In this document: positions 122 through 32,000 of the stretch, one piece after another
Numbering within the stretch: position 1 is the stretch's first letter
Layout of the letters: every line of letters starts with the position of its first letter
From: Planctomycetales bacterium
GTDB lineage: Bacteria > 4484-113 > JAFGCY01
Length of the DNA: 32,000 nucleotides
NCBI GenBank assembly: GCA_022646745.1
Contig: CP060262.1
Location: forward strand, 1,920,001 to 1,952,000
Reading direction: 5' to 3'
Program-made: the position numbers and the translations under genes
The notes under the pieces: generated by a model
What the model was told of the DNA's origin: nothing
The model's database searches: none
The model's input: the letters and a program-made list of their open reading frames with translations, nothing else

Positions 122-883
122 TTAGGGGCGGCTGAAGCGGATAAGCAGGTCGATACGGCCCTGCGGATGGTTCACCGCGTATTCATTGACGCTGACCTTG
201 GAACCGTCAGCGAGCTCGATGGCGGGGCTGCCACTGCCGGGATAACCGGCGGCGATCGCCTGGATCTCGGTCAGGCTGGCCGCGTCAGCACGGATGCTGA
301 ACTCGGTCGGCAGCCCACCGGGGAAGGTATAGCTGTAACCATTGGGACCCTTGGCACAGACGGCGCCCTCGAACACGCCGAGCTGGCGGTCGAGCTGGTC
401 CACCAGCTGCATTGCGTTGCGGCTGGCACCGTTCTCGGCACGCTGCAGGGTGCTGTTGAGGAACTGGCTGCTTGAGGCGTTGATCAGGATCTCACTGGAG
501 CTGTCCTGGCCGTTGAAGCCGGAAGCCACGCCGACGTTGTTCACGCCCGGGCGGTCCATGGCACGATCGTAGATGAACTGGCCGAAGGCCAGGCCGACCA
601 CGATCAGGGCCACCAGCATGGAACCCGCGAAAGCACGCTGCGGGGTGAAGTTGAAGCGCTGCTGGGGCTCGATGCGCTCCATCAGCTTCGCGCGGAATGC
701 GCTGGGATGTACCTCAACCTCGGGGCCGCTGGACATCAGCAGGCCGATACGGCGCATCTGCTCATACTCGCGGCGCAGCTCAGGGTCCTGGGCCATCAGG
801 CGCTCGAACTCCGCCTTGTCGGCGAGTCCGATCTCCCCGTCCAGGTACTCATTGAGCCATCGTTTTGCCTTTGCTCGATTCAC
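122..883 (-). CDS. Membrane-anchored anti-sigma factor (non-zinc type)
   Basis: 253 aa. The GTG start overlaps the sigma stop (GTGA at 880-883). The N-terminal 50 aa follow the anti-sigma N-domain pattern (WLNEYLDGEIGLADKAEFERLMAQDPELRREYEQMRRI) but lack the Cys/His zinc ligands. One TM helix (FAGSMLVALIVVGLAFGQFIY) precedes a roughly 150-aa extracytoplasmic domain. The position immediately 3' of an ECF sigma gene is typical. Confidence 0.65.
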   Translation of the reverse strand: MNRAKAKRWLNEYLDGEIGLADKAEFERLMAQDPELRREYEQMRRIGLLMSSGPEVEVHPSAFRAKLMERIEPQQRFNFTPQRAFAGSMLVALIVVGLAFGQFIYDRAMDRPGVNNVGVASGFNGQDSSSEILINASSSQFLNSTLQRAENGASRNAMQLVDQLDRQLGVFEGAVCAKGPNGYSYTFPGGLPTEFSIRADAASLTEIQAIAAGYPGSGSPAIELADGSKVSVNEYAVNHPQGRIDLLIRFSRP

Positions 884-1497
884 GCTATGTTCACCTTCTG
901 CCTTACAAGATCGCGGGCACGGCTGATCCGTGACTTCACGGTGCCGATTGAAATGCCGAGGATCTCAGCCACTTCCTCGTAGCTGAGTTCGTTGATCTCA
1001 CGCATGATGAGGATCGTCCGGTATATCTCCGGCAGGCCCCGCACCGCCTCCATGATGTCCTGGACCAGCTTGCGCTGCTCCACCGTTTTTGCGGGGTCGT
1101 AAGTGGCATCCGGCAGGGTGTCGAGGATCTCGAAGTTCTTCTCCTCGCTCGGTGCCTGCTTCGGCGCGGACACGAACATCCGGCTGAAGCTGGAACGCCT
1201 GCGGGCATGGGTCCGGCAGTAGTTGAGCACGATCTTGTAGATCCAGCTCTCCAGGCTTGCATTGCCCTTGTACTTGCCGATGAACTTGTAGATCCGGACG
1301 AAGATCTCCTGGGCCACGTCCTCGATCTCGTCTATATCACCGAGGTGCTGGTAGACGAGGTTGAACACGTAGCGCTGGTACTTCGACACGAGCTCATCAA
1401 AGGCCCGGTGGTCGCCCTGCTGGCATCGCACGATCAGCTCACTCACCTCGGGGGAGTTGTAAGCCAGATATGCATCTGCCATAGCTGCCACTAACAC
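880..1497 (-). CDS. ECF-type RNA polymerase sigma-70 family factor
   Basis: 205 aa. Region 2 is present (FDELVSKYQRYVFNLVYQHLGD...DVAQEIFVRIY), as is the region 4 HTH (LSYEEVAEILGISIGTVKSRISRARDLV). The listed start at 1497 is GTG. An in-frame ATG at 1482 (MADAYLAY...) is an alternative start. Confidence 0.9.
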   Translation of the reverse strand: MLVAAMADAYLAYNSPEVSELIVRCQQGDHRAFDELVSKYQRYVFNLVYQHLGDIDEIEDVAQEIFVRIYKFIGKYKGNASLESWIYKIVLNYCRTHARRRSSFSRMFVSAPKQAPSEEKNFEILDTLPDATYDPAKTVEQRKLVQDIMEAVRGLPEIYRTILIMREINELSYEEVAEILGISIGTVKSRISRARDLVRQKVNIA

Positions 1498-1501
1498 CTT
1501 A

Positions 1502-1532
1502 TTTGAGACTCAGCTGCGGCGAACGGGTTCCC
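1502..1532 (-). promoter_or_regulatory. Candidate autoregulated ECF-type promoter (GGGAAC-N18-TCTCAAA)
   Basis: The minus strand reads GGGAACCCGTTCGCCGCAGCTGAGTCTCAAA (1532..1502). It has a GGAAC -35 core, and the -10-like TCTCAAA ends a few nt before GTG 1497. If real, this favours ATG 1482 as the start. This is a pattern match only. Confidence 0.3.
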
Positions 1533-1593
1533 TAAATCTTCAACATTATTCTGGATGTCCCCCGACAGCGGGCGATAGATTTTAACCGAGCAA

Positions 1594-1674
1594 TTCAGGG
1601 ACGCGGAGAAGGGGGGGGTTATTCAGGGACCAGGGACCGGGGATCAGGGAACGGGGAACAGGGAACAGGGAACG
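1594..1674. repeat. Heptanucleotide tandem tract (unit CAGGGAA/C) with adjacent G8 run
   Basis: cagggac at 1596-1602 and a G8 homopolymer at 1611-1618. Seven in-register heptamers follow at 1624-1672: cagggac cagggac cggggat cagggaa cggggaa cagggaa cagggaa. Confidence 0.85.
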
Positions 1675-1835
1675 TGTTGGAGGTGCGCAATCACGCCTGC
1701 GGCGTGACGTACAAAGGGGTGCTGGAGCAGTCTGAATAGTCCGGATAGTCTGAAAAGTGGAAGAAGTGGTTAGTTCTTAGTAGCGGCTGCACCTTGCAGC
1801 CGGACATCAGTAGTAGCAGCGGCGCCCTCGCCGCT

Positions 1836-1870
1836 GGAGCCGCGAAGCGCAGCTTCGGCTTCGCTTCCGC
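1836..1870 (+). repeat. REP-like hairpin element, copy 1 (short form)
   Basis: ggagccgcgaagcgcagcttcggcttcgcttccgc. It shares ggagccgcgaagcgcagcttcg and cggcttcgc with copy 2. The core hairpin is cgaagc-gca-gcttcg. Confidence 0.6.
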
Positions 1871-1910
1871 AACACAGCTCAGCCAGCCCGATCCGTGCTA
1901 GCCTGAAAGA

Positions 1911-2423
1911 ATGATCAAGCTATACAGATTCCTGCTGGATGTATTGCTCGTTGCCGGCCTCACGGTGCTGGTCTCCGGCTGCCCTGCAGGCACAGGCAAG
2001 ACTGCAACATCCGGTTCTGCTCCGCAGCTGCCTGCATCATGGCCCCTGCCGATTCTCACGCTGCCTCCCGGCGCAGTTGAGAATCCGCTGGGAGTATCAA
2101 TGGGCGTCAGCGGGATGGAAAGCACGATCGAAAAAGCCGGTGTCGGTGATGACGACGGCCTGCTCTGGGCGGTCGGCTTCAGGACGGACGGGACATTTGC
2201 AGATGTGAAACAGCATGTTGAATCGTGCTTGGACATGACAAAGTTCAGCCAGATCCGCGAATCTGATTCTGAGGGCAGGCATGTGGTCGACTGGGAATCC
2301 GCCGATGGGAAAACCCACGTCCAGCTATTCCACTCGGAGAAGAACATGGTCAATAGTGGCAAGGGTGTCATAGGGATGACCAGCTACCCTGGCTACAAGC
2401 TTGAAGTTACCGTGATGAAGTAA
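1911..2423 (+). CDS. Hypothetical lipoprotein
   Basis: 170 aa. Signal peptide with lipobox LVSGC (Cys24). No domain recognised. Divergent from the ECF sigma operon. Confidence 0.7.
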   Translation: MIKLYRFLLDVLLVAGLTVLVSGCPAGTGKTATSGSAPQLPASWPLPILTLPPGAVENPLGVSMGVSGMESTIEKAGVGDDDGLLWAVGFRTDGTFADVKQHVESCLDMTKFSQIRESDSEGRHVVDWESADGKTHVQLFHSEKNMVNSGKGVIGMTSYPGYKLEVTVMK

Positions 2424-2425
2424 AC

Positions 2426-2490
2426 GGGGGAGCCGCGAAGCGCAGCTTCGCTGGCTTTGCCGCTTGAGCTTGCGCAGTTTCGGCTTCGCC
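2426..2490 (+). repeat. REP-like hairpin element, copy 2
   Basis: gggggagccgcgaagcgcagcttcgctggctttgccgcttgagcttgcgcagtttcggcttcgcc starts 2 nt after the lipoprotein stop. The stem is agccgcgaagc / gcttcgc(t)ggct around loop gca. It is collinear with copy 3 at 8238-8301. Confidence 0.65.
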
Positions 2491-2600
2491 TATGTATTCT
2501 AGATAGAAGTTATTGTAATGTAAAAGAAGAAGAGTCGATTTTGGCAAAACTTCGGGGCTGAACCATTTCCCTATACATTAGTGATCTAACACTACCTAGA

Positions 2601-3467
2601 TCAAATCTGGATCAATACAAAAGCTGTGCTCCAGTACTTTTCAGGCACCGAGACTTTTTCCGCCCTAAAATGAAGTCTGTTTGGTCTAGCATGTGAACTG
2701 ACTAATCGCAATACTAGGCTACGCACTGGTGTCTTTTTGTTAGAATCAAGGAAAATAACAATTCCAACCATGTCAGGTTCGATTCTTTCAGTTTCGCACG
2801 TCACTGAGATGTCAGCAAAATTCCGCGGATTTGGTTCATTGCTATATGCATCAGAGTTAATTGTGATTTTGTCATATGTGCAATCTACATGATTGTCTGG
2901 AGTATAGGACAAGAAGCTATTGGGTGCTGCAGTTGCCGATTTGACAAAAGCAGCTCCGTTAATCCAATTCCATAACACGTTTGTACATGTGTATCCAACG
3001 CGAGGTTCTCCTTCGCTCTTTAAGATCATTGTTCTTGTCAACAGCCCCTTTTCCAATAGAGATTGACAAGCAGGGTCATTGCCGGCTCTGTATAGAGTTC
3101 GTTGATTAAATCGCGCAAAGGTCGCAACCAATTCTTTCTCTTCTGGTGAAAAAACTTTGTAATCAGACCACAATCTCCATGAAGAAATGATGCTCTTGAG
3201 CCAATCCCAAATGTTGCCAGCAATGAAGAAAATCCACTGCATACCAAGAACGAAACTAGAAGCTAGTACACCTAGTACAATGGGAGAAATGCTCTCAATC
3301 TGAGGCCACATGTGTGGCATTACAGTTGATGAATCATCTAGGGTGATTCCAGGTACTGCATATGGAAATTTGACAATCAGGTACAGCAAGAAGAGGCCTG
3401 ACGATAAGAAGGCAAATTGAGTTAGTGGATTAATCTGCTTGATTTCCTTCAGGATATCTAAGTTCAT
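2601..3467 (-). CDS. Hypothetical two-TM membrane protein in an AT-rich islet (possible SieB-like core)
   Basis: 288 aa. Good SD (GGAGAAG 7 nt before the ATG). Two N-terminal hydrophobic helices (LTQFAFLSSGLFLLYLIVKF; ISPIVLGVLASSFVLGMQWIFFIAGNIW). These are followed by FSPEEKELVATFARFNQRTLYRAGNDPACQSLLEKGLL and a roughly 140-aa C-terminal domain with no recognised motif. G+C is much lower than in the flanks. Confidence 0.7.
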   Translation of the reverse strand: MNLDILKEIKQINPLTQFAFLSSGLFLLYLIVKFPYAVPGITLDDSSTVMPHMWPQIESISPIVLGVLASSFVLGMQWIFFIAGNIWDWLKSIISSWRLWSDYKVFSPEEKELVATFARFNQRTLYRAGNDPACQSLLEKGLLTRTMILKSEGEPRVGYTCTNVLWNWINGAAFVKSATAAPNSFLSYTPDNHVDCTYDKITINSDAYSNEPNPRNFADISVTCETERIEPDMVGIVIFLDSNKKTPVRSLVLRLVSSHARPNRLHFRAEKVSVPEKYWSTAFVLIQI

Positions 3468-3770
3468 GTTTGCTTCTCCAAAAATATCTAATTTACAATT
3501 TTCTCAACTTCATTCTTGCAGATTGAGGACAGCCAAGCAGTTCATGGAAGCCAAGTTCCATAAGATGGAACGCTGATTATTCGATCGTACAATGATTCTA
3601 AGGGCAACTCAAGTGCTTGAATCTAGGAATATCTCGCATTTAGCATAACATTGTAGTCAAACATTTCGACATACGGATTGGAAATCTTGAACAGTTTCAA
3701 TTTGATGAAGTGTGTGCCCTCATCACCTACTGCTAGAGAAGGTATCACAACCGCAACCAACAATCTTCAA

Positions 3771-3787
3771 TCCCGCAAAGGGCGGGA
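3771..3787 (-). terminator. Possible terminator hairpin after the AAA+ ATPase gene
   Basis: The minus strand reads TCCCGC-CCTTT-GCGGGA followed by TTGAAGATTGTT. It lies about 39 nt 3' of the stop at 3826. The stem is short and the U-tract is imperfect. Confidence 0.35.
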
Positions 3788-3825
3788 CTGACCTCCGCGC
3801 CTCGCTACACCCTACAAATGAGGTC

Positions 3826-5163
3826 CTAGTACCTCAGGATGATTTCCGTGCGCTGGTTCTTCATCGGCAGCTTGCGCTTGCGGCCGCCCTGCTCATTGCT
3901 GCGCGGCGTGCGGTAGAACACGATCTCGCTCTTGGGGGTGATCCCGTCGCTGGCCAGCTCGTCCGTCTCCTGGATGCGGGCCTCCAGCAGGTCGCCCTCG
4001 TGGATCAGGCCGTAGGCATGCAGCTCGGCCACTTTGGTATCGATGTACTTCTCCACAGCGCGTACCAGCGGGCGCACACCGAGCTCGCGGTCCATCCCAC
4101 GGTCCACCAGCCAATCACGCACCTCGTCATTGAGCTGCAGCGTGAAGCCGAGGCCCGCGAAGCGCTCGGCGGAGATGTTGAGCAGCTTCTGCAGGATCTT
4201 GTACAGGCTTGGACGGTCCAGCGCACGGAACACGATGAACTCCGTCAGTCGGTTGCGGAATTCCGGCGTGAAGATGTTCTTCATCGCCTCCTTGGCCGCG
4301 ACGTAGATCTGCTGGTCGCTGCGGATCTCGGCCACGCTGTCCGTGTTGCGGAAGCCGATGCGGTTCTGGTGCAGGATCTTCTCGATGTCGCCGGCGCCGA
4401 CGTTGGAGGTCATGATCACGATGCAGTCCTCGAAGCTGACCTCGCCGGGGTCGTCCTTCGTGCGGCGCGCGAGCGTGATACGGCCCTCGTCCATGATCTG
4501 CAGCAGCAGGTTGTGCAGGCGGAAGTGCGCCTTCTCGATCTCATCAAACAGGATCAGGCGGTTCGTCGTGCCCTCCACGTTTTCCTTGGAGAGGATGGCG
4601 GGCAGGTCGGAGCCGATGTAGCCGGGAGGGGCACCGATCAGGCGGGCGATGGCATGCGGCTCGCTGTATTCGGAGCAGTCAACCTTGAGGATCGCGCGCC
4701 AGTCGTTGTGCAGCGCCTTGGCCAGCGCGCGCACGGTTTCGGTCTTGCCGACGCCGGTCGGGCCGGCGAAGAACATGGTGGAAATCGGGCGGCCGGATGT
4801 ACGGAAGCCCTCGCGGGAACGCAGCAGCGCCCGCGCGATGGCGTCGATCGCGCGCTCCTGGCCGATCACCTCGCGGTGCAGCACCTCGATGATGTCGTCA
4901 ACGGGGCTGCGCGCACCGGGCGGGATGATGATCGGGATGGTGGCCTCGTAGTCGGTGATGATGCCGCCGCCGTTCTTCAGGCCGGGGTTGCCGGCATCCG
5001 CTTCGGCACCGGATTCCGCACTGGCGGCGAGCAGCTCCTGCTCCTCCTCGACGGCTTCTTCCTCGACCAGCTCATCATTGACGGACTCACCCAGGCCCTT
5101 GTCATCCTTGAGAGGCTTCTTCGGCGCGCCCTTCTTGCTGTCACTGTTTTTCTTTCCCGGCAT
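3826..5163 (-). CDS. Single-module Clp/Hsp100-type AAA+ ATPase (ClpA/B D2-like only)
   Basis: 445 aa. Walker A GPTGVGKT, pore-loop-like GAPPGYIG, Walker B LILFDEIEKA, sensor-1 IVIMTSN, Arg-finger region FTPEFRNRL and sensor-2 GVRPL in a D2-small-like C-terminus. The N-terminal ~75 aa are a K/E-rich low-complexity region. No D1 module or N-domain. Confidence 0.85.
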   Translation of the reverse strand: MPGKKNSDSKKGAPKKPLKDDKGLGESVNDELVEEEAVEEEQELLAASAESGAEADAGNPGLKNGGGIITDYEATIPIIIPPGARSPVDDIIEVLHREVIGQERAIDAIARALLRSREGFRTSGRPISTMFFAGPTGVGKTETVRALAKALHNDWRAILKVDCSEYSEPHAIARLIGAPPGYIGSDLPAILSKENVEGTTNRLILFDEIEKAHFRLHNLLLQIMDEGRITLARRTKDDPGEVSFEDCIVIMTSNVGAGDIEKILHQNRIGFRNTDSVAEIRSDQQIYVAAKEAMKNIFTPEFRNRLTEFIVFRALDRPSLYKILQKLLNISAERFAGLGFTLQLNDEVRDWLVDRGMDRELGVRPLVRAVEKYIDTKVAELHAYGLIHEGDLLEARIQETDELASDGITPKSEIVFYRTPRSNEQGGRKRKLPMKNQRTEIILRY

Positions 5164-5227
5164 ACCTTATAGATACCCGATGCCCGGGAAATTCGACCTG
5201 AAGTACAAGTGGAATAACGGTGAAGGG

Positions 5228-8017
5228 TCAGGGGCTGACCGGTTCGAGGATGTTCCTTCCGTAGATGATCCGGCCCTGGCTGTCCACGAAGGAATCGCCG
5301 TTCTCGACCTGGTCGTTGATCTGGTGCTCCCAGAGGAGCGATCCGCCCGAATCAAGCAGCATGAGCCAGTGATTGCTGGTCACAAGCACATTGCCAGACT
5401 GGTCAGGAGTCAAACCGTATGGCTTTGCTCCCTGGCTGAAAGAAGTACTCCAGATGAATTCACCAGCCGGGCTGACCCTGTATGCACTGTCGTTATCCGC
5501 GACAAGCAGGCTGCCATCGAGCCAGATCACCGGGGATCTGTAAGAGTGGATACCCTCGAGTTCGTAGGTCCAGCGAAGTTGTCCCGCTGGGTCCAGAGAA
5601 ACGAGGCCGGTATTCATCAAGGTGAAGTAGATATTGCCCTGCAGGTCGATACCGCACTCCCGTGCGATCTTCTCGTCTGCTTCGTAGTCCCATAGCCGGT
5701 TTCCGGAAGCATCTAGGGCGTGCAGCCGGCCGTCCACATCGACAACATAGATCTCCCCGCTGAGTGACTGGGAAGGTGACAGCTCCAGCCTGGCAATCTG
5801 ATTGCTCATCCAGACAAGGTTGCCATCCAGGCTGATGCAGTAGACGCGGCCATCGACACAAGCCTGCAGCAAGTTGCCATCGATGGCAGGAACTGGCCCG
5901 GCAACCAGGGGGCCGCCAGCCTTGTAGGCCCATTTCTGGTTGCCATCCTCGTCCAGGGCGTACAGGTTGAAATCTTCACAGGAAACGTAAACCGTGCCGT
6001 CTGGACCGGCATAGGGGGACTGGCCAATGTTGGACGGGAAGGTCTTGCTCCAGGCATCACTCAGGTCACTGTTCAGCACACGGATGGTCGAGGCCACACT
6101 GCTGATGATGCGGCCATTTCCATCCATCACCTGCTCGAACCCCGCAGCGCCTGAATTGAAGTCCTGCTCGAGCACCCGCTGGATGTTTCCAAGCGGAAAC
6201 AGGTTGCCGGTTTGCCCGGTATGCCTGCCGTCGTAACCACTGGTTGGCCGGGGTGACGATGCTGGCTGCGGGTTGACCAGCACAGTGGCCTGCGCTGAGG
6301 ACTGCCAGCCGCGACTGTCAAACGCGATCACCTTGGCCTGCGGAGCACCGGCTTGTTCGAATACATGTTCTACAACCGCCTCGGTGCCTGTGCTGTCGAT
6401 GGTGCCATCGCCATCAAAGTCCCAGCCATAGCTGGCAATGGCATCGTCCGGTGAGGTTGAAGCCGATGCATCAAGCGTGTATGTGCCTCCGGCAAATCCA
6501 TAGGGGGGATTGACTGCCAGGACGACCTCCGGCAGCTGGCCCTGGACGATGACCTGCGTGTAATCGCGGTCCCACAGGCCGTCGTTGTCAATCACTCGCA
6601 GCTGCGGCTTCAATCCCAGCGGCCCGGTTGCGGTCTCCAGCAGCAGCGGATACTGCAAGTACTGGAGTGACTGGGCATCCCAGACATCAAAGATCCCATC
6701 GCCATCAAGGTCCCAGCCGCTGCCAACGATTGTCCCGTCTGCATCGGTGCTGGCTGATCCATCGAACAGCACATCCAGGGGAGGGACGCCATAGTTCGGA
6801 TCACAGGATGCATCGGCCTGAGGCCGCTGGCCCTCAGTGACAATGAGCGTTGCTCCGCTGAGCCAGACGGAGTCACCAGCCTTGGCGCGCACGGTGATCC
6901 TGCACACACCTGGGCTTGTGGTATCAGGCAGGTATGTGCCGGAGGATGCAGTTTCCGCCAGTCTCGGGTCGCCATCAAGGGCAAACTGGTATTCTTCTGC
7001 CCCGCTGGCCAGCAGTGCCGTTGAAAAACCCGCCGGTACATCATTGCTCTGCACAATCAGGCCGAATTCCATGACACTCTCCGGCAGGGAAGCTGCGAAC
7101 AGCATCTCTCCCGGTTCGGAAACATTGCCATTGTGATCAACCGACTGGATCCGCAAGTAACGTCCGTCGGGATACGCAGGCATGATCAGCCCCGGATATC
7201 TGGCCAGGCCTGGAATCTGCTTCACCCCGGGAGAATCTGTCCTGTGGAAAGGCAATGCACTGTGGCTGACAAGATAGCCGGCCACGTCTTCATCAGCTGG
7301 TGCCAGCCACGAGATCTCAGAACCTCCGGCCACCGGCTTTGCATCACCGCCGGTCGGGGCTGCCGGTTCGGCCTTGTCAGAGTTGTCAAGTGGGACCACG
7401 CCGATGCCGACAAGGTCCAGCGGATTGCTGGAGCTGACATTGATGGCAATGAAGCAGTTTCCGGAGCTGGAAAGGTAGTCGGCCCCGGCCTGGACGTTGC
7501 TTGCGGGAGCCAGCACGAGGTGCGGCTGATCGAACGGGCCATACCAGTCCCACCTGCCAGTGGCATAGTTGGCAATCGCCACGCTGTATCCGGAGCCGGA
7601 CTGCTGCGATCCGAGGGGATAGTTCACGTCGATGCCAAGGCTGCCGGGCTGCTGGCCTGACAGGGGGATACGGTAAAGGGCCCAGCTTGATTCGCCAAAT
7701 TCAGGGGCAAGCCTGGCAGCTTCTCCTGCTTCATCCACATCTGGGGAGGCAAGGAACCAGTCCTTGCCGAAACTGTATTGTTCCTCTGACGAAGTAGCAC
7801 TGGATCCGCGAATGCCGTAGGTGTCCACTTCCCAGGGCTGCAAACCATCGGTTGGCAGGGCAGTCGGGAATGCGACCGACGCAGGCGTACCGGTATCGGC
7901 GGCAGGCGCATTGGCGAAAGGCAGTTCGTTGATTTCGGCAGGAATGGTACCTGCGCTGCCGCAGGCTGCCACAAGCAGGCAGGCAATCAAGCCCGTGCAG
8001 ATTCTTGCACTTCTCAT
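5228..8017 (-). CDS. Exported lipoprotein with PKD-like modules and a C-terminal PQQ-like (BamB-like) beta-propeller
   Basis: 929 aa. Signal plus lipobox LLVAAC (Cys19). PKD-like segments (DGSASTDADGTIVGSGWDLDGDG; LDASASTSPDDAIASYGWDFDGDG). Repeated propeller blades (LYALDEDGNQKWAY, VYCISLDGNLVWM, LHALDASGNRLWDY, LVSLDPAGQLRWTY, LMLLDSGGSLLWEH). SD AGGGGAA before the ATG. Confidence 0.85.
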   Translation of the reverse strand: MRSARICTGLIACLLVAACGSAGTIPAEINELPFANAPAADTGTPASVAFPTALPTDGLQPWEVDTYGIRGSSATSSEEQYSFGKDWFLASPDVDEAGEAARLAPEFGESSWALYRIPLSGQQPGSLGIDVNYPLGSQQSGSGYSVAIANYATGRWDWYGPFDQPHLVLAPASNVQAGADYLSSSGNCFIAINVSSSNPLDLVGIGVVPLDNSDKAEPAAPTGGDAKPVAGGSEISWLAPADEDVAGYLVSHSALPFHRTDSPGVKQIPGLARYPGLIMPAYPDGRYLRIQSVDHNGNVSEPGEMLFAASLPESVMEFGLIVQSNDVPAGFSTALLASGAEEYQFALDGDPRLAETASSGTYLPDTTSPGVCRITVRAKAGDSVWLSGATLIVTEGQRPQADASCDPNYGVPPLDVLFDGSASTDADGTIVGSGWDLDGDGIFDVWDAQSLQYLQYPLLLETATGPLGLKPQLRVIDNDGLWDRDYTQVIVQGQLPEVVLAVNPPYGFAGGTYTLDASASTSPDDAIASYGWDFDGDGTIDSTGTEAVVEHVFEQAGAPQAKVIAFDSRGWQSSAQATVLVNPQPASSPRPTSGYDGRHTGQTGNLFPLGNIQRVLEQDFNSGAAGFEQVMDGNGRIISSVASTIRVLNSDLSDAWSKTFPSNIGQSPYAGPDGTVYVSCEDFNLYALDEDGNQKWAYKAGGPLVAGPVPAIDGNLLQACVDGRVYCISLDGNLVWMSNQIARLELSPSQSLSGEIYVVDVDGRLHALDASGNRLWDYEADEKIARECGIDLQGNIYFTLMNTGLVSLDPAGQLRWTYELEGIHSYRSPVIWLDGSLLVADNDSAYRVSPAGEFIWSTSFSQGAKPYGLTPDQSGNVLVTSNHWLMLLDSGGSLLWEHQINDQVENGDSFVDSQGRIIYGRNILEPVSP

Positions 8018-8180
8018 CTGTTTCCCCTACAGGCAGCTTACTGCCCCAGTGATCATTCCCAATCAGGACCTGCCTGCCCGCCGGCTTCCCGTTCACGGCA
8101 GGCGCCTCCCGCTGCGGGTGCAGCCCGGGCAGGTCCATACATTATAGGGACGAGGGGGCGGGGAAAGGGTTACAGGAAGT

Positions 8181-8236
8181 GGTCAGCGGTCAGTAGTCAG
8201 TGGTCAATGGGCAGAATCAGAATGAGAAACAGAAGC
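8181..8236. repeat. Heptanucleotide tandem tract (unit GGTCAGT, drifting)
   Basis: In-register heptamers: ggtcagc ggtcagt agtcagt ggtcaat gggcaga atcagaa tgagaaa cagaagc. The tract is directly followed by REP-like copy 3. Confidence 0.75.
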
Positions 8237-8237
8237 A

Positions 8238-8301
8238 GGGGGAGCCGCGTAGCGAAGCTGCGCTGGCTTTGTCGGAAGTTCTTGCGCAGCTTCATCCCGC
8301 C
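8238..8301 (+). repeat. REP-like hairpin element, copy 3
   Basis: gggggagccgcgtagcgaagctgcgctggctttgtcggaagttcttgcgcagcttcatcccgcc is collinear with copy 2. The stem is retained despite substitutions (gcgtagc-gaa-gctgcgc, one G-T wobble). Confidence 0.6.
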
Positions 8302-8455
8302 ACGGCGTGATTGCGCAACGCAGTTCCGTGGCGCGACGGACATCGGGCTTCCGCCTACCGCTGAAGCGGATAGCTCCGTTGTGCGACATGCGCCGCACCT
8401 CAGGAAGGAGGCCAAGCCGTTTGCTTGGCAATTGCCAGGCTGACAGCCTGGCCTC

Positions 8456-9334
8456 CTACAGCGGGTCGGTGTCGGAGAGCAGGATTGACAACAGGCGCTC
8501 GAGGTCCTCGTCGCCGTGGTAGCTGATGTTGATGCTGCCGTTGCCGGCCTGCTCGCTCAGGCGCACGCGCGTGCCGAGGTGCTCCATCAGGCGGCTCTCA
8601 GCCTGCTTCAGGCGGCTCGGCTCACTCGGTTTGACAACGAGCTTCTTGCGCGGCCGGCGGATCGGCTGGCGGTTGGCGGCCTCGGCGGCGCGGCGTTCCA
8701 GCTCGCGCACGCTCCAGCCCTCACGGGCGCAGGTCTCGGCGATCTCCTCGCGCTGCTCACCGGGGAAGCTGAGGATCGAGCGGCCGTGCCCGGCACTGAT
8801 GCGGCTGTCGCGCACCAGCTGCTTGACCTTGTCGCTGAGCTCCAGCAGGCGCAGGGTGTTGCTCACCGCCGGGCGGCTCTTGCCGATCACCTCGGCGAGC
8901 TGGCTTGTGGTGTATGCGTAGCGGTTCTGCAGGTTCTCCAGCGCTTCCGCGACTTCGATCTCGTTTAAGTCAGCGCGGATCAGGTTCTCGACGAGTGACA
9001 GCTCCTGCAGCTGGCGGTCGGAGAAGTCGCGCACGATGGCCTGGATCGAGGTATGGCCGAGGTCGCGGCAGGCGCGCAGGCGGCGCTCACCGGTCACCAG
9101 CTGGTAGCGGCCGTTGTCACCTTCGCGCACCGTGACCGGCTGCAGCAGGCCCTGGCTGCGGATGCTGGCCCGCAGTTCGTTCAGTTCCTCCTGGTCGAAC
9201 TCGCGTCGGGGCTGGAAGGGGTTGGCGTCAATCTGCGCGATGCGCAGGTCGAGGATCTTCTCGCCGTCCTTCAGCGGTCCCGCCGCCGGTATCAGTTCCG
9301 CCAGGCCCTTGCCCAGTCCGCGTTTCCTGCTCAT
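8456..9334 (-). CDS. parB: Chromosome partitioning protein ParB (Spo0J)
   Basis: 292 aa. N-terminal [10 protein letters not shown] box, ParB-box [11 protein letters not shown], and [33 protein letters not shown] overlap with parA. Confidence 0.92.
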
Positions 9335-10104
9335 TGCGTGCCTTCCATCCTGTCTATCAGTTCCCGTGCCGCGGCCCGGTAGGCCTGCGCCCCGCTGCCT
9401 TCCGGATCGTGCACCGTGATCGGGGCGGCGTGGCTCGGGGCCTCCGCCAGCCTGACCGACCGGGGCACCAGTGTCTCGAAGACATGGCCCGGGAAGTTGC
9501 TGCGGACCTCCTCCACCACATCGCGGCTGAGGTTGGTCCGTGAGTCATACATTGTAAGCAATGCCCCGGCCACGTCCAGCTGCTGGTTCAGCGCTGAGCG
9601 GATCCGGCCGATGGTGTCGGTCAGCTTGGCCAGTCCGGCCAGGGCGTAGAACTCGCACTGCACCGGGATCACCACATGGCTGGAGGCCACGAGGGCGTTC
9701 AGGGTCAGCAGGCCGAGGCTTGGGGGGCAGTCGATGATCACGTAGTCATGCGGCAGCTCGGCGCGGTCCAGTGCGCGCCTGAGCGCATACTCGCGCGCCA
9801 GTGCACTGACGAGCTCGAGCTCCGCCGCTGAAAGGTCAATATGTGAAGGGGCCACGTCCAGGCGTTCGAAGCTGGAGGCGCGCATCACCTCAGCCAGCGG
9901 CACGCCGTCCATCAGCACGTTGTAGATGGATTCACCGCTGCCGACTTCCACCCCGACACCGGCCGAGGCATTGGCCTGCGGGTCGAGGTCAATCAGCAGC
10001 ACGCGCCGCCCCTCGGCCGCAAGCGCAGCCGCGAGGTTGATTGAAGTCGTGGTTTTCCCTACTCCGCCTTTCTGGTTGGCCACGGAGATCACATGTGGCA
10101 TCAC
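9331..10104 (-). CDS. parA: Chromosome partitioning ATPase ParA (Soj)
   Basis: 257 aa. Deviant Walker A in [24 protein letters not shown] and Walker B-like VLLIDLDPQ. The listed start 10104 is GTG, immediately followed by ATG at 10101, which may be the real start. Confidence 0.93.
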
Positions 10105-10177
10105 GCGATTATAGCGCCGGTTTCACGCGGCCATTCCAGCCTGAATCAGCCAGCATGTAAAATCAGGACAGGTCCGC

Positions 10178-11008: not shown

Positions 11009-11011
11009 GCG

Positions 11012-11968
11012 ATGCCGGTCCAGCTGTTCGCGGCGCGCGACCCGCTGATCCTCGACGAGGCCGTCAGTGCCGTGTTGCCAAAAGGGGTCGAGCCGGAGCG
11101 CCACTACGCAGCCGAGCTGAATGCGGACACGGTGTTCAACCAGCTCGGCAGCGGCGACCTGTTCGCTTCCGAGAAGTGCTTCATCTACGTTGACATCCTC
11201 GACATGAAGCCGGGCAAGCGCGACAGCGAGCGCATCACGGAGATCCTCGCCAAGCTGCCGGCGGAGACCACGCTTATCTGCACGCAGCTGTTCAGCGATC
11301 CCGAGAAGCGCAGTGACGAGGACCGCCGGCTGAAGACCCAGGCCTTCACGCTCTGGCAGAAGGCCGGCAAGTACCACGACCTGCGCCGCCAGGGCGAGGG
11401 TGACAACGGGGTGCGCTGGCTGGCGGCACGGGCCCGGCAGCACTACAACCTTGAACTTGGCAACGCCCAGGCGATGCAGCTGCTGCACCTGGCGACTGAC
11501 CAGCTGGCGCTGGCGGATGCGGAACTGGCCAAGCTGGCACTGGCACTGGATGGCGGTGGCCGGGTGACGGATGAGCTGCTGCGCGAGACCGTGCAGGGCA
11601 GCCCGGCGGCGAAGTTCTATGAAATGGCGGACGCGGTCACCTTGTGCCGTGGGGATGCGCAGCGCCTGCTCTCGGACTGGTTCCGCAGTACCGGCGACAC
11701 CTTCCGGCTCGTCAACGAGCTGAAGCGCCGCTTCAGCGGGATGCGTACGCTCAGGCGTGGCGGCAATGTCTACCCGCCCTTCTTCGCGCGCTCACTGCAG
11801 CAGTTCCAGCGGCATTACCCGGACCGGCGTTTCAATGCGGCGGTCGGGCTGCTGGCCCAGCTTGAGCAGGACCTCAAGGGGGGGATGTACGCCGGGGCCA
11901 GCTCGAAGGATGCGGAGTTCACGGCGTTGCAGGTGTTCACGGCCGACCTTGCGGCACTGCCGCGCTGA
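11012..11968 (+). CDS. holA: DNA polymerase III delta subunit
   Basis: 318 aa. It starts 3 nt after the crotonase stop. The central segment GVRWLAARARQHYNLELGNAQAMQLLHLATDQLALADAELAKLALAL parallels E. coli HolA LPRWVAARAKQLNLELDDAANQVLCYCYEGNLLALAQALERLSLL (recalled from memory). Length and layout fit. Confidence 0.75.
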   Translation: MPVQLFAARDPLILDEAVSAVLPKGVEPERHYAAELNADTVFNQLGSGDLFASEKCFIYVDILDMKPGKRDSERITEILAKLPAETTLICTQLFSDPEKRSDEDRRLKTQAFTLWQKAGKYHDLRRQGEGDNGVRWLAARARQHYNLELGNAQAMQLLHLATDQLALADAELAKLALALDGGGRVTDELLRETVQGSPAAKFYEMADAVTLCRGDAQRLLSDWFRSTGDTFRLVNELKRRFSGMRTLRRGGNVYPPFFARSLQQFQRHYPDRRFNAAVGLLAQLEQDLKGGMYAGASSKDAEFTALQVFTADLAALPR

Positions 11969-12562
11969 TCAGGCCGGCTCGTCGGCGTCCATGTCCGGCA
12001 TCATCATGCAGAAGTCGCCGGCCTCCACGTCGCTCTTCGCGGTCTCGATGCTCAGGTTGCGGCGGCCCTTTGTCTCCGGCAGCAGGTTGCCGCGGATCCA
12101 CTGCTCGCTCATGAACAGGTGGCGGTAGCTGCGGCGCAGGTGCACGATCACCATCACGTAGATCCCGGTGACTGCGATCACGGCGAGTGCGGTCATCACG
12201 CCGCTCTGGAAGTCGTCCATCGTGCCACCGTTGCGGTAGGCACTGAACTTCTGGTCGATGCGGGAGAACTTGTCGATCAGTACCTGCACCCAGGGGATCA
12301 GCGGCGTGATGCCGGAGAGCCAGATCGCCCAGCGCTTGACGTAGAGGATGCCGAGCCCGCCGAGGAAGCAGGCCATCGGCACGAACACCAGGTTCAGCAG
12401 CACCATGAAGGCGCCGAGCCCGGTCTTGGTCTGGTTGTAGAGCGCGCCCTGGTCGAACTCGAAGAATGAGTTGAGCATCCAGACGAAGCCCGTGATGAAC
12501 AGGATGGTGGCCGGGAACTTGGCCCAGCGCAGCGCCTCTCGCTTGTGGTCTCGCACCAGCAT
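11969..12562 (-). CDS. Hypothetical multi-pass membrane protein
   Basis: 197 aa from ATG 12562 (MLVRDHKREALRW...). Three to four hydrophobic helices and an acidic C-terminus. The longer track ORF (to 12730) would translate the heptamer repeat tract and is not preferred. Confidence 0.6.
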   Translation of the reverse strand: MLVRDHKREALRWAKFPATILFITGFVWMLNSFFEFDQGALYNQTKTGLGAFMVLLNLVFVPMACFLGGLGILYVKRWAIWLSGITPLIPWVQVLIDKFSRIDQKFSAYRNGGTMDDFQSGVMTALAVIAVTGIYVMVIVHLRRSYRHLFMSEQWIRGNLLPETKGRRNLSIETAKSDVEAGDFCMMMPDMDADEPA

Positions 12563-12590
12563 GCGAAGTAGATTGTAACGCTGGATGGGG

Positions 12591-12774
12591 GGAGGTTGGA
12601 GTTTGGAGCTTGGAGGTTGGAATTTGGAGGTTGGAGGTTGGAGTGGGGAGGTTGGAGAAGCAATGAGTGGGGAACAATGAGCAATGAGACTGACCCAGGC
12701 AGAGGTCACCTCGGAGTCGGCCTGCCTCATTGCTCACTCTTCATTGCTCATTACTACTCCAACCTCCCCACTCC
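12591..12774. repeat. Heptanucleotide tract (14 units GGAGGTT then CAATGAG) plus an inverted 7-unit copy: long imperfect hairpin
   Basis: 12591-12688 is 14 in-register heptamers: ggaggtt ggagttt ggagctt ggaggtt ggaattt ggaggtt ggaggtt ggagtgg ggaggtt ggagaag caatgag tggggaa caatgag caatgag. After a 37-nt spacer, 12726-12774 carries the reverse-complement units: ctcattg ctcactc ttcattg ctcatta ctactcc aacctcc ccactcc. Confidence 0.85.
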
Positions 12775-12780
12775 GAACTG

Positions 12781-12807
12781 AAAAGGGGAGGGCCGTAGCC
12801 CTCCCCC
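12781..12807 (-). terminator. Intrinsic terminator of the 958-aa lipoprotein gene
   Basis: On the minus strand: GGGGAGGG-CTACGG-CCCTCCCC followed by TTTT (plus-strand stem 12785-12792 / 12799-12806, A-run 12781-12784). It lies about 140 nt 3' of the stop at 12948. Confidence 0.7.
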
Positions 12808-12947
12808 TTAGGTGGACGGAGTTGTTTCCGTTGCGGTTGCCAGACTTTCGCCTGACCTCCGCCTCCCGTTCGTTCAGCGTGACCCGACGAAACAGGCTTT
12901 CGCCGCAGCGCTGGACCGCCGCACGCTTGCGCGAGGCGGAAGATCGA

Positions 12948-15824: not shown

Positions 15825-16124
15825 TTCTCCACCTTACGGGATTGAATTGAACAATAAGGAGGCAAGGTGAACGAAAGGAGCTTTTTACTCCCAAACGCTT
15901 CTGTGCATGTCCTGTACCGGATAGCCAAAACTCACCCGCACTCACTCTGTATGTGCCCGAATACTAACAGAACAAAGGAAACAGTCACTACATTTAGTTC
16001 GCACTTAACGGGGCTTCACACGGAGTTTACCGGGGCTGCAATCCGGGCTTGATAGGGCCTCAGGGTGTGTGCGATGATAGGAAACGCGCAATCCCCGCGC
16101 GACCCTCACAATCCGGACCAGTCA

Positions 16125-31415: not shown

Positions 31416-31477
31416 ATTCTTCTATGTCAAATGAATCCCTGGTTCTGTCTCCAAACTGGTGTTGATACAATTTATCA

Positions 31478-32000
31478 ATGAAGGGTAGATTCCAACCTTG
31501 GTTGAAGGTCGCTGGGTGCATTTCCGTTCTGCTCGTTTCAGGAGCAATAGCGATGTCAATCAGTGGGTGCAGGAATGACAAGGACCCACTTGCAGCGTTA
31601 GCTCCCTTTCCGAAGATCGACATGAGCAATTGGCCTGTTGCGTTGCCACCTCCCCAGGATTCGCTCTCCGGTTCACTGTCCGTTGATCCATCAGCTACCT
31701 TTGTCGAGCGAAGGAGTGGACTTTCCGCTGGAGAGGTCTGGGCTTATGCCTTTCATCACAGGATCAGCTTCATTGACCACCACTTCTATTACCAGTCACG
31801 GATGCGAGACGCAGGATTCAGGGTGGTCAAGGGGCGGAACCAGCTCGAAATTGCTGCTCTTGAATCCATAGATGTACGCTGGGCCGAGCAGTATGTCAGT
31901 AGTTCCGGAGATGTACTGGTTACGTTATGCACTTTGCATGACCCTGAACATCACGGTTCTCGATACGAGGTCTACATCGAGAAGCGCAATGACATTCCCG
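31478..32000 (+). CDS. Hypothetical lipoprotein, 3'-truncated by the window edge (not in the ORF track)
   Basis: Hand translation from ATG 31478 stays open to base 32000 (174 codons): MKGRFQPWLKVAGCISVLLVSGAIAMSISGCRNDKDPLAALAPFPKIDMSNWPVALPPPQDS... It has a signal peptide with lipobox ISGC. G+C is lower than the window average. Confidence 0.5.
   Translation, partial: MKGRFQPWLKVAGCISVLLVSGAIAMSISGCRNDKDPLAALAPFPKIDMSNWPVALPPPQDSLSGSLSVDPSATFVERRSGLSAGEVWAYAFHHRISFIDHHFYYQSRMRDAGFRVVKGRNQLEIAALESIDVRWAEQYVSSSGDVLVTLCTLHDPEHHGSRYEVYIEKRNDIP

What the first reader, a model, noticed from the sequence alone, without database searches (positions are those of the whole stretch)
2491..3720. AT-rich islet carrying a single two-TM protein with a possible SieB-like (superinfection exclusion) core
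Composition drops sharply across about 1.2 kb. Hand counts of three 60-nt lines gave 43-48% G+C inside, against about 62% for a line in the adjacent ATPase gene. This is not a full computation. The islet holds one well-formed gene (2601-3467, good SD) and long AT-rich non-coding flanks, which is consistent with recent horizontal acquisition. The protein has two N-terminal TM helices followed by FSPEEKELVATFARFNQRTLYRAGNDPACQSLLEKGLL (nt 3033-3155). From memory, this resembles the conserved core of the phage SieB superinfection-exclusion family: TM helices, then an E-K-x-x-L-x-x-F ... T ... D-P ... L-x-K-G-(I/L) segment. It then continues into an extra ~140-aa domain I cannot place. A lone membrane protein of this type in a compositional islet is a reasonable candidate for an abortive-infection or exclusion function. 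The left edge coincides with REP-like copy 2.
Basis: partly seen in the sequence, partly recalled or inferred. Interest (0 to 1): 0.7.

Follow-up and report, generated by a model that had tools for sequence, protein, structure and literature searches.

The report
Orphan SieB-like membrane protein islet
A 1.3-kb stretch of foreign, AT-rich DNA in a planctomycete chromosome carries one real gene for a membrane protein that looks like a very distant relative of the phage "superinfection exclusion B" protein with an extra tail domain, so it is a plausible but untested anti-phage gene.

Summary
Window 2491-3771 is 40.1% G+C against 61.6% around it. The single gene (2601-3467, minus strand, 288 aa) has GC3 of 0.40, against 0.66-0.89 in its neighbours. 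It has a GGAG Shine-Dalgarno sequence and two N-terminal TM helices.

The protein is an orphan. In about 15 billion proteins only identical copies exist, all from one clonal Planctomycetales population. Twelve related loci with the orthologous neighbouring ATPase lack it.

The SieB resemblance is real but below family thresholds:
- The only Pfam hit is SieB (E=0.011, 15.8 bits, cutoff 26).
- The only PHROG hit is a family that P22 SieB matches at 1.9e-19.
- A home-made SieB HMM beats 9,999 of 10,000 shuffles.
- hhalign gives 78% probability.
- Predicted secondary structure is collinear with P22 SieB through residue ~176.
- P22 SieB ranks second among BFVD viral structures.

Residues 177-288 are an unplaced, probably beta-rich extension.

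There is no prophage, defence island or mobility gene nearby. One argument failed its control: conserved "invariant" columns outside the core are matched equally well by shuffled decoys.

Verdict: a horizontally acquired, remote SieB-like variant. An abortive-infection role is inferred, not shown. Interest is moderate.

The parts
2491..3771 (.). AT-rich islet (1,281 nt, 40.1% G+C against 61.6% around it), lying between the 3' ends of two convergent native genes
   Evidence: Composition profiles. Maximum-likelihood boundaries and z=15.8. No target-site duplication or terminal inverted repeat at the edges.
2601..3467 (-). Single protein-coding gene, 288 aa (P0001; NCBI 'hypothetical protein H7A35_07610, Planctomycetales bacterium')
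   Evidence: ORF list. GC3 of 0.398. Chance expectation about 9e-6. Identical copies on 15 contigs from many samples.
3474..3479 (-). Shine-Dalgarno-like GGAGAA; the GGAG ends 8 nt upstream of the ATG
   Evidence: Read from the sequence.
3480..3771 (-). AT-rich non-coding leader (about 37-40% G+C). Presumed own promoter and 5'UTR region. No small ORF of note and no Rfam match.
   Evidence: The promoter function is inferred, not shown.
3339..3428 (-). TM helix 1 (residues about 14-43)
   Evidence: Kyte-Doolittle 19-residue windows above 1.4. AF2 helix 14-37.
3210..3299 (-). TM helix 2 (residues about 57-86). It is preceded by P-H-M-W (P22: PHYW; lambda: PHVW) and continues into a Trp-rich stalk helix to about residue 103.
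   Evidence: The PHxW match is a post-hoc observation and is not statistically supported.
2940..3155 (-). SieB-like soluble core, residues 105-176, with predicted helix-strand-helix-beta-hairpin-helix (winged-helix-like). The statistically supported sequence match is residues 106-148 (nt 3024-3152).
   Evidence: Pfam SieB 99-146. phrog_37662 91-151. Local HMM 107-148. hhalign 106-145. Secondary structure collinear with P22 SieB. Foldseek.
2604..2939 (-). C-terminal extension, residues 177-288. Predicted beta-rich at low confidence, absent from canonical SieB, with no family assignment.
   Evidence: AF2 pLDDT below 50. No Pfam hit even at E<=10. Only a weak repeated match to Big_13 Ig-like repeats of P0002.
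2429..2489 (+). Native REP-like palindromic element (GCGAAGC...GCTTCGC) that forms the left border of the islet. It probably also ends transcription of both convergent genes.
   Evidence: Metagenome assemblies break exactly at 2429/2430. The terminator role is inferred.
3771..3787 (-). Hairpin TCCCGC-AAAGG-GCGGGA just downstream of the ATPase stop codon (3826), at the right border of the islet. Possibly the ATPase terminator.
   Evidence: Read from the sequence. Not called by the consensus terminator scan, so this is inference only.

Best explanation
A 1.28-kb piece of foreign, AT-rich DNA sits between the convergent 3' ends of a native lipoprotein-like gene and a native AAA+ ATPase gene in a Planctomycetales chromosome. 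It carries one functional-looking gene.

The product is an inner-membrane protein with both termini in the cytoplasm. Its first ~176 residues have the architecture of phage SieB: two TM helices, a long stalk helix, and a small winged-helix-like domain carrying the motif S/T-x-x-E...P-x-x-x-S-L-L-x-K-G-L-L-T-R. I regard this part as a remote homolog of SieB. It is fused to a unique 112-residue, probably beta-rich C-terminal domain.

The most likely mode of action follows SieB of P22 and lambda. The membrane-anchored protein is made constitutively. Its cytoplasmic domains sense a product of an infecting phage. The protein then shuts down the cell's macromolecular synthesis, presumably through its TM helices and membrane energisation, so the infection aborts. 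The extra C-terminal domain would act as an added or alternative sensor.

Shown here: the islet, the gene, the TM helices, the core similarity and the absence from relatives. Inferred: homology over the whole N-terminal module (my estimate about 0.7), anti-phage function (about 0.4-0.45), and every mechanistic step after 'membrane protein with a cytoplasmic winged-helix-like domain'. The confidence given (0.45) is for the whole statement, function included. The islet and horizontal-transfer part alone I put at about 0.9.
For: Foreign origin:
- G+C is 0.401 against 0.616, and GC3 is 0.398 against 0.66-0.89.
- There is no homolog in 5.8 billion clusters or 1.84 billion representatives, apart from identical copies.
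- It is absent from 12 loci carrying the orthologous ATPase (57-85% identity over the C-terminal 144-aa query), none of which shows an AT-rich dip after the ATPase.

Real gene:
- The SD sequence is present and a 300-codon frame has a chance expectation of about 9e-6.

SieB link:
- The sole Pfam hit among 24,736 models is PF14163 SieB: E=0.011, residues 99-146 matching profile 71-118.
- The sole PHROG hit among 38,880 is phrog_37662 (E=0.11). P22 SieB matches that family at 1.9e-19 in the same register.
- An HMM of 16 non-redundant SieBs scores 13.7 bits. None of 5,000 shuffles of residues 91-288 that kept the N-terminal TM region intact, and 1 of 5,000 full shuffles, reaches that score.
- hhalign gives probability 77.9% and E=1.8e-5.
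- P22 'PEAISLLKKGIITR' compares with our 'PACQSLLEKGLLTR'.
- The secondary-structure elements of the two independent AF2 models line up in the same order and at nearly the same positions. Ours: H14-37, H49-58, H62-103, H108-119, E124-126, H132-139, E143-149, E155-161, H163-176. P22 SieB: H19-35, H38-47, H56-105, H109-120, E125-128, H132-140, E144-146, E155-159, H162-172.
- Foldseek of our model against BFVD ranks P22 SieB (Q38660, identity verified) second, with 108 aligned columns, rmsd 3.8 and probability 1.00. The two queries share most of their neighbours.
- All three proteins have an acidic, K/R-poor inter-TM loop.

Function of the reference family:
Against: - Every similarity score is sub-threshold. 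Pfam gives 15.8 bits against a gathering cutoff of 26; Foldseek gives E=0.017 from a low-confidence model (pLDDT 53); the exhaustive phmmer search found no SieB at E<=0.001.
- The significant sequence match spans only about 40 residues of a small winged-helix-like fold that is very common.
- No intermediate sequences bridge our protein to SieB.
- Conservation of SieB-invariant columns outside the core failed its control: 165 of 400 segment-shuffled decoys did as well.
- The genomic setting is not that of sieB. There is no prophage and no immunity region, and no Esc-like internal start.
- Function is known for only two enterobacterial-phage SieBs, and the molecular mechanism is unknown even there.
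- The population is clonal, so there is no evidence of selection, and no expression data exist.
Confidence: 0.45

Rival explanations
1. It is a membrane-anchored winged-helix protein with a non-defence role, for example a membrane-tethered regulator, signal transducer or scaffold brought in by horizontal transfer. On this view the similarity to SieB reflects a shared small fold and a common TM-plus-winged-helix layout, not shared function or ancestry.
For: The SieB core is a generic winged-helix-like fold. The P22 SieB model's best PDB neighbours are MarR/PadR-type regulators, and our model's BFVD neighbours are mostly small viral regulators. All SieB scores are sub-threshold. There is no defence or phage gene nearby. 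The extra C-terminal domain is absent from SieB.
Against: Among hundreds of HTH and winged-helix models in Pfam, only SieB is hit, and the only PHROG hit is also SieB-type. The match is in register with the TM architecture. P22 SieB outranks all but one of the viral structures, with the longest well-superposed alignment among the 50 matches listed (108 columns, rmsd 3.8). The putative recognition helix (DPACQSLLEKGLL) is not basic, which is unlike DNA-binding regulators (sequence).
Confidence: 0.25
2. It is a stranded remnant of a once larger mobile element or prophage (a 'moron'-like cassette) that is no longer under selection. The ORF is intact only because the acquisition is recent, and it has no current function in this host.
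For: The codon composition is unameliorated (GC3 0.40 in a genome where GC3 is 0.66-0.92). It is a total orphan. Long non-coding AT-rich flanks make up about a third of the islet. The islet lies at a rearrangement breakpoint relative to related genomes. The population is clonal, so persistence says nothing about selection.
Against: The frame is an intact 288 codons with a good SD, in DNA where stop codons are frequent. The islet was identical in every sample in which the organism was assembled, with no presence/absence polymorphism. No pseudogene fragments or mobility-gene remnants were detected in the flanks.
Confidence: 0.2
3. It is not a gene at all, only a chance open reading frame in an AT-rich intergenic spacer.
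For: It has no homologs. The AF2 confidence is low.
Against: The chance expectation of such an ORF is about 9e-6. An SD sits at the right distance. There are two clean TM helices and a profile match that beats shuffles.
Confidence: 0.02

Closest known systems
SieB, superinfection exclusion protein B of Salmonella phage P22 and coliphage lambda (Pfam PF14163; PHROGs 1301, 6399, 37662)
   Same: Both have two N-terminal TM helices with an acidic loop between them, a long post-TM2 helix, and then a helix-strand-helix-hairpin-helix soluble core at almost the same residue numbers. They share the core motif [LF]-[ST]-x-x-E...P-x-x-x-[SEK]-L-[LI]-x-[KL]-G-[ILV]-[IL] with identical P-to-G spacing. Pairwise identity to P22 SieB in the global MAFFT alignment is 21%, the same as between recognised SieB subfamilies (18-23%); that identity is not above shuffled decoys, since 62 of 400 segment-shuffled sequences reach as many identities to P22 SieB, so it shows only that the divergence is compatible with membership. 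Both are single-gene units with their own upstream region.
   Different: Our protein scores below the Pfam gathering cutoff (15.8 against 26 bits). It is 288 aa against 160-205 aa, with a 112-residue extra C-terminal domain. It is not in a prophage immunity region opposite an N-type antiterminator, but in a bare 1.28-kb islet in ordinary chromosome. It has no Esc-type internal start. The host is a planctomycete, whereas all SieBs recovered here are enterobacterial. The stalk helix is Trp-rich rather than highly charged.
Phage 'morons' and small lysogenic-conversion or defence cassettes
   Same: It is a single gene of deviant, AT-rich composition with its own upstream non-coding region, bounded by hairpin or terminator-like elements.
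   Different: It is not embedded in a phage genome, and no integrase, att-like repeat or tRNA lies nearby.
Single-protein membrane abortive-infection or exclusion factors (e.g. lambda RexB, P22 SieA, T4 Imm/Sp) - functional analogy only, from general knowledge and PMC10883804
   Same: Each is a small inner-membrane protein encoded by foreign DNA and proposed to act at the membrane against incoming phage.
   Different: No sequence or profile similarity to any of them was detected. RexB works with the partner RexA, whereas no partner gene exists here.
Bacterial Ig-like domains (Big_13, PF19077)
   Same: Residues 170-222 align weakly (about 30% identity) to each of seven Big_13 repeats of P0002, and the region is predicted beta-rich.
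   Different: The Pfam Big_13 model itself does not hit our sequence even at E<=10. The 9e-10 arises from summing seven copies of one weak match. The model confidence is below 50. A cytoplasmic location would also be unusual for such domains.

Membership tests
SieB (Pfam PF14163) | Profile match at or above the curated gathering score (26 bits) | tested here: not met
   15.8 bits and E=0.011. It is the only Pfam hit, covering residues 99-146 against profile 71-118 of 147.
SieB (Pfam PF14163) | Conserved post-TM core motif (L-[ST]-x-x-E ... P ... L-x-[KL]-G-[ILV]-[IL]) | tested here: met
   E, P, L and G are present with the same P-to-G spacing as P22. The local HMM scores 13.7 bits and beats 9,999 of 10,000 shuffles. 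hhalign gives 77.9% and E=1.8e-5. The first position is F instead of L.
SieB (Pfam PF14163) | Architecture: two N-terminal TM helices, a long helix, then a small helix-strand-helix-hairpin-helix domain | tested here: met
   Hydropathy. The AF2 secondary structure of ours against P22 SieB (pLDDT 82.6) is collinear element by element through residue ~176. Ours was a low-confidence single-sequence model.
SieB (Pfam PF14163) | Three-dimensional similarity to a bona fide SieB | tested here: inconclusive
   P22 SieB (Q38660) ranks second in BFVD with 108 columns, rmsd 3.8 and probability 1.00. However, E=0.017, TM-score is 0.29/0.40, and the query model has pLDDT 53.
SieB (Pfam PF14163) | Family-invariant residues outside the core (P37, P53, W56 in P22 numbering) | tested here: inconclusive
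   MAFFT aligns them, but 165 of 400 segment-shuffled decoys retain at least as many invariant columns. This is no evidence either way.
SieB (Pfam PF14163) | Located in a temperate-phage immunity or early-left region (opposite N / gene 24) | tested here: not met
   The lambda and P22 contexts are shown. Our window is ordinary chromosome with no phage genes.
SieB (Pfam PF14163) | Internal in-frame start producing Esc (a self-immunity product), as annotated in P22 | tested here: not met
   P22 esc starts at Met25. Our protein has no Met between residues 2 and 49, and no SD-like sequence before any internal Met. The feature is documented only for P22, so it carries weak weight.
SieB (Pfam PF14163) | Phenotype: aborts lytic development of superinfecting phage and halts macromolecular synthesis | not testable with these tools
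   The phenotype is defined in PMC7380047 and PMC10883804. It requires experiments.
Known defence systems (PADLOC-DB v2) | Match to any defence-protein model | tested here: not met
   There are no hits at E<=10. This is uninformative for SieB, because canonical lambda, P22 and 673R7 SieBs have no meaningful PADLOC hit either.
Bacterial Ig-like domain Big_13 (PF19077), for residues 177-288 | Profile match to the domain model | tested here: not met
   There is no Pfam hit at E<=10 for the C-terminal 118 residues. Only weak pairwise matches to P0002 repeats exist (E from 6e-5 to 0.015 in a two-sequence search).
MarR/PadR-type winged-helix transcription regulators | Profile match to an HTH or winged-helix family; soluble dimeric DNA-binding protein | tested here: not met
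   There is no Pfam or NCBIfam HTH hit. The protein is membrane-anchored. The resemblance is at fold level only, and was seen for the P22 SieB model at E>0.03.

The most novel reading that the evidence does not exclude
The gene founds a previously unseen branch of SieB-derived single-gene abortive-infection proteins that live outside prophages. In this branch the SieB 2TM-stalk-winged-helix module is fused to a C-terminal beta-sandwich sensor domain, giving a planctomycete a stand-alone membrane Abi switch. Because it is so divergent, it would define the minimal conserved SieB core (TM hairpin plus the E...P...SLLxKGLL winged helix). That would give a handle on the still unknown SieB mechanism.
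Probability: 0.3. Interest if true: 0.55.

Novelty: new variant of a known kind. Interest (0 to 1): 0.4.

Why it matters
SieB was described genetically in the 1970s-90s, yet its molecular mechanism is still unknown. The family recovered here is confined to enterobacterial prophages.

A homolog this remote, in a different phylum, outside any prophage and carrying an added domain, would show which parts of SieB are indispensable: the TM hairpin and a roughly 40-residue winged-helix segment. It would also extend single-protein membrane exclusion factors to Planctomycetes, whose phage defence is little explored.

The case is also a clean example of a minimal 1.3-kb, single-gene horizontal acquisition with unameliorated composition and no mobility genes.

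If the SieB link is only fold-level convergence, the finding reduces to an orphan membrane protein in a small genomic islet, which is common.

Tried and rejected
1. Genome-collection scan with the neighbouring ATPase. 
2. Metagenome scan with the anti-sigma-like 253-aa neighbour. No relatives were found.
3. Database search with only the 93-residue core at E<=10. No candidate shared enough 5-mers, so this search was wasted.
4. SieB-alignment search of the protein database and of viral contigs. Only enterobacterial SieBs came back, from three subfamilies in the database and close P22-type copies (>=78% identical) in viral contigs. No bridging sequences appeared, so the profile could not be broadened.
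5. Conservation of SieB-invariant columns (P37, P53, W56, G141) in a global alignment. It looked persuasive, but I rejected it as evidence after 165 of 400 segment-shuffled decoys did as well.
6. The 9e-10 hit to P0002. I rejected it as a domain assignment, because it sums seven repeats of one weak match and Pfam Big_13 does not hit our sequence.
7. tblastn and blastn of the protein and the islet against phage and plasmid collections, a viral-contig scan with the protein, a PDB sequence search, and Rfam at gathering and permissive thresholds. All gave nothing meaningful.
8. Search for target-site duplications or terminal inverted repeats at the islet edges. Only a 9-mer (TGATGAAGT) turned up, which I judge to be chance. 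There are no tRNAs.
9. Presence/absence polymorphism or SNP-based selection analysis. All 15 public contigs are >=99.8% identical and all carry the islet.
10. Promoter and terminator consensus scans. They found fewer sites than in shuffles, so they are uninformative for a planctomycete.
11. The literature search on 'SieB' alone was swamped by the botanical author abbreviation. Ranade & Poteete 1993 is not held in the library.
Full report
**1. Observation**

The compositional discontinuity is real and sharp.
- 300-nt windows fall from 0.56-0.68 G+C to 0.38-0.45 between about 2400 and 3750.
- No other 500-nt window of the 32-kb window goes below 0.526.
- A two-state maximum-likelihood segmentation places the borders at 2491 and 3771, with 0.401 inside and 0.616 outside (z about 15.8).
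- At codon level the contrast is stronger. GC3 is 0.398 for the islet gene, against 0.66-0.89 for five neighbours and 0.54-0.92 for the other ORFs picked across the window, only three of which fall below 0.65.

The islet holds one ORF of note, 2601-3467 on the minus strand, 288 aa.
- GGAGAA lies at 3474-3479, and its GGAG ends 8 nt upstream of the ATG.
- An open frame of 300 codons in DNA of this composition is expected about 9e-6 times by chance.
- Hydropathy gives two TM segments at about residues 14-43 and 57-86.

The left border abuts a REP-like palindromic unit at 2429-2489. That unit recurs at 1836 and 8241 and is therefore native to this genome. The right border abuts a 6-bp hairpin (3771-3787) just after the ATPase stop codon.

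The islet therefore sits between the 3' ends of two convergent native genes: lipo170 (1911-2423, plus strand) and the AAA+ ATPase (3826-5163, minus strand).

**2. Surroundings**

The window is ordinary chromosome. It encodes an ECF sigma factor and its downstream partner, a stand-alone AAA_2/ClpB_D2-small ATPase, PQQ/PKD surface proteins, ParB and ParA, enoyl-CoA hydratase, a tricorn-like S41 protease, a 5'-nucleotidase, 3-hydroxyacyl-CoA dehydrogenase, a cytochrome c and an SLT transglycosylase.

There are no phage, integrase, transposase or defence genes, no tRNA and no Rfam family. I found no target-site duplication or terminal inverted repeat at the islet edges.

**3. Distribution**

The protein (P0001, NCBI 'hypothetical protein H7A35_07610, Planctomycetales bacterium') is an orphan.
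- The word-indexed search of 5.8 billion clusters found only itself.
- The exhaustive phmmer search of 1.84 billion representatives found itself plus one repeat protein, discussed in section 5.
- The phage, plasmid and viral-contig collections gave nothing.

Fifteen public contigs from many samples carry the flanking genes. All contigs long enough to show the junction carry the islet, and all are at least 99.8% identical to the window. The population is clonal, so it gives no information on polymorphism or selection.

A metagenome scan with the C-terminal part of the ATPase recovered 12 loci, 11 of them 57-85% identical to that C-terminal query and one at 30%.
- None encodes a relative of the islet protein or of lipo170.
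- None has an AT-rich dip after the ATPase.
- In L106 and L110 the order is antisigma<-sigma<- ... ParA->ParB->ATPase->. Our ParA-ParB-ATPase block is therefore inverted relative to sigma/antisigma, and the islet plus lipo170 lie at that junction.

Together with the unameliorated composition, this supports a lineage-specific and probably recent acquisition. An exact empty site could not be shown, because the downstream context is not conserved among these distant relatives.

**4. Is it SieB-like?**

Several concordant signals are individually weak but mostly above chance.
- (a) Pfam: the only hit among 24,736 models is PF14163 SieB. E=0.011, 15.8 bits, gathering cutoff 26, residues 99-146 against profile positions 71-118 of 147.
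- (b) PHROGs: the only hit among 38,880 families is phrog_37662 (E=0.11, residues 91-151). That family is SieB-type, because P22 SieB matches it at 1.9e-19 in the same register.
- (c) I fetched lambda, P22 and vB_EcoS-673R7 SieB, aligned them, collected the family, reduced it to 16 representatives and built an HMM. Our protein scores 13.7 bits over residues 107-148. None of 5,000 shuffles that kept the TM region intact reached this score (maximum 8.8). One of 5,000 full shuffles did. No other six-frame ORF of the window did.
- (d) hhalign of the family against our protein gives probability 77.9% and E=1.8e-5 over 40 columns.
- (e) The local motif is striking: P22 'PEAISLLKKGIITR' against our 'PACQSLLEKGLLTR', with identical P-to-G spacing.
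- (f) Architecture. An AF2 model of P22 SieB built with its alignment (pLDDT 82.6) has H19-35, H38-47, H56-105, H109-120, E125-128, H132-140, E144-146, E155-159, H162-172. The independent single-sequence model of our protein (pLDDT 53, best around residues 131-140) has H14-37, H49-58, H62-103, H108-119, E124-126, H132-139, E143-149, E155-161, H163-176. The elements are the same, in the same order, at nearly the same positions.
- (g) Foldseek of our model against BFVD found nothing at E<=0.001. Rank 2 is Q38660 (E=0.017, probability 1.00, 108 columns, rmsd 3.8). I verified Q38660 as P22 SieB, at 99% identity to my P22 model. The two queries share most of their neighbours, which are small winged-helix proteins.
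- (h) The P22 SieB soluble core resembles MarR/PadR-type winged helices only weakly (E>0.03).
- (i) The inter-TM loop is acidic and K/R-poor in all three proteins, which suggests N-in/C-in topology.

**A failed argument.** A global alignment keeps four of the seven SieB-invariant columns (P37, P53, W56, G141), including a P-H-x-W motif before TM2. However, 165 of 400 decoys shuffled within topological segments keep at least as many. I do not count this as evidence.

**Negatives that carry no weight.** PADLOC has no hit, but it does not recognise canonical SieB either.

**Negatives that do carry weight.**
- All scores are sub-threshold.
- The significant sequence match is about 40 residues of a common fold.
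- No bridging sequences exist.
- phmmer against 1.84 billion representatives did not retrieve any SieB.

I put homology of the N-terminal ~176 residues to SieB at about 0.7.

**5. The C-terminal extension (residues 177-288)**

This part is absent from SieB, where two short helices follow the core. It is predicted beta-rich at pLDDT below 50.

The one non-self database hit, P0002, is a Big_13 Ig-like repeat protein. Each of its seven repeats aligns weakly to residues 170-222. The summed E-value of 9e-10 is inflated by that repetition, and Pfam's Big_13 model does not hit our sequence at E<=10. The domain stays unassigned.

**6. Mechanism**

Established for the reference family: P22 and lambda SieB abort lytic development of superinfecting phages, with cessation of RNA, DNA and protein synthesis midway through infection. 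P22 itself escapes (PMC7380047, PMC10883804). The P22 record annotates the escape product Esc as an internal in-frame start within sieB. The molecular mechanism is not known.

Inferred for our protein:
- It is a constitutively made inner-membrane protein.
- Its cytoplasmic winged-helix-like domain, and perhaps its extra beta-rich domain, detects a phage product.
- Its TM hairpin then compromises membrane function and aborts the infection.

None of these steps is shown here. No Esc-like internal start is apparent, which fits a chromosomal gene that has no phage of its own to protect.

**7. Comparison and membership**

It works like, and probably descends from, SieB. It is not a member by the curated criterion (Pfam 15.8 against 26 bits).

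It differs from SieB in length, in the added domain, in host phylum, in genomic setting (no prophage) and in lacking Esc. I file it as a new variant of a known kind.

**8. Rivals**

- A membrane-tethered winged-helix protein with a non-defence role: 0.25.
- A stranded, functionless remnant of mobile DNA: 0.2.
- A chance ORF: 0.02.

**9. Verdict**

Its interpretation is partly supported. The islet and the SieB-like core are real, the homology is remote and sub-threshold, and the exclusion function is a reasonable but untested inference. Interest is moderate (0.4).

Noticed in passing
window 1836-1864, 2429-2489, 8241-8262: A REP-like palindromic unit (GGAGCCGCGAAGCGCAGCTTCG, followed by CTGGCTTTG...) sits just after gene ends. 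Two copies are exact and one has 3 mismatches, with zero expected by chance. Independent metagenome assemblies break exactly at 2429/2430, which implies more copies elsewhere in the genome.
   Followed up: partly
window 1911-2423 (+): A 170-aa ORF has a lipoprotein-like N-terminus (...LTVLVSGC). It has no Pfam hit and a lower GC3 (0.66) than its neighbours. It is bracketed by two REP-like copies and has no match in 12 related loci. It may be a second, older lineage-specific acquisition next to the islet.
   Followed up: partly
window 122-10122 compared with L106 and L110: Relative to related metagenome loci (antisigma<-sigma<- ... ParA->ParB->ATPase->), the ParA-ParB-ATPase block is inverted with respect to the ECF sigma pair. 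A 929-aa PQQ/PKD gene (5228-8017) is inserted between ParB and the ATPase. The islet lies at the inversion junction.
   Followed up: partly
window 3826-10122; L105, L106, L110: A stand-alone 445-aa AAA_2 + ClpB_D2-small ATPase, with an acidic low-complexity N-terminus, is syntenic with parA-parB in several related genomes. This conserved association has no obvious explanation.
   Followed up: no
window 15501-16000 and 31466-32000: There are two milder G+C dips. The first (0.536) is at the divergent intergenic region 15834-16055. The second (0.526) is at the right end of the window, where a partial ORF (31466 onward, GC3 0.54) has no Pfam hit and could be the start of another foreign segment.
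   Followed up: partly
window 11009-15833: Three sizeable high-GC3 ORFs have no Pfam match at all: 11009-11968 (+), 11969-12733 (-) and 12948-15833 (-, 961 aa).
   Followed up: no
window 2496-2524 (-): The only sigma-70-like promoter match in the islet region (TTTACA-17-TAGAAT) lies downstream of the islet gene and points antisense into the 3' end of lipo170. Fewer such matches were found than in shuffles, so it is probably chance.
   Followed up: no
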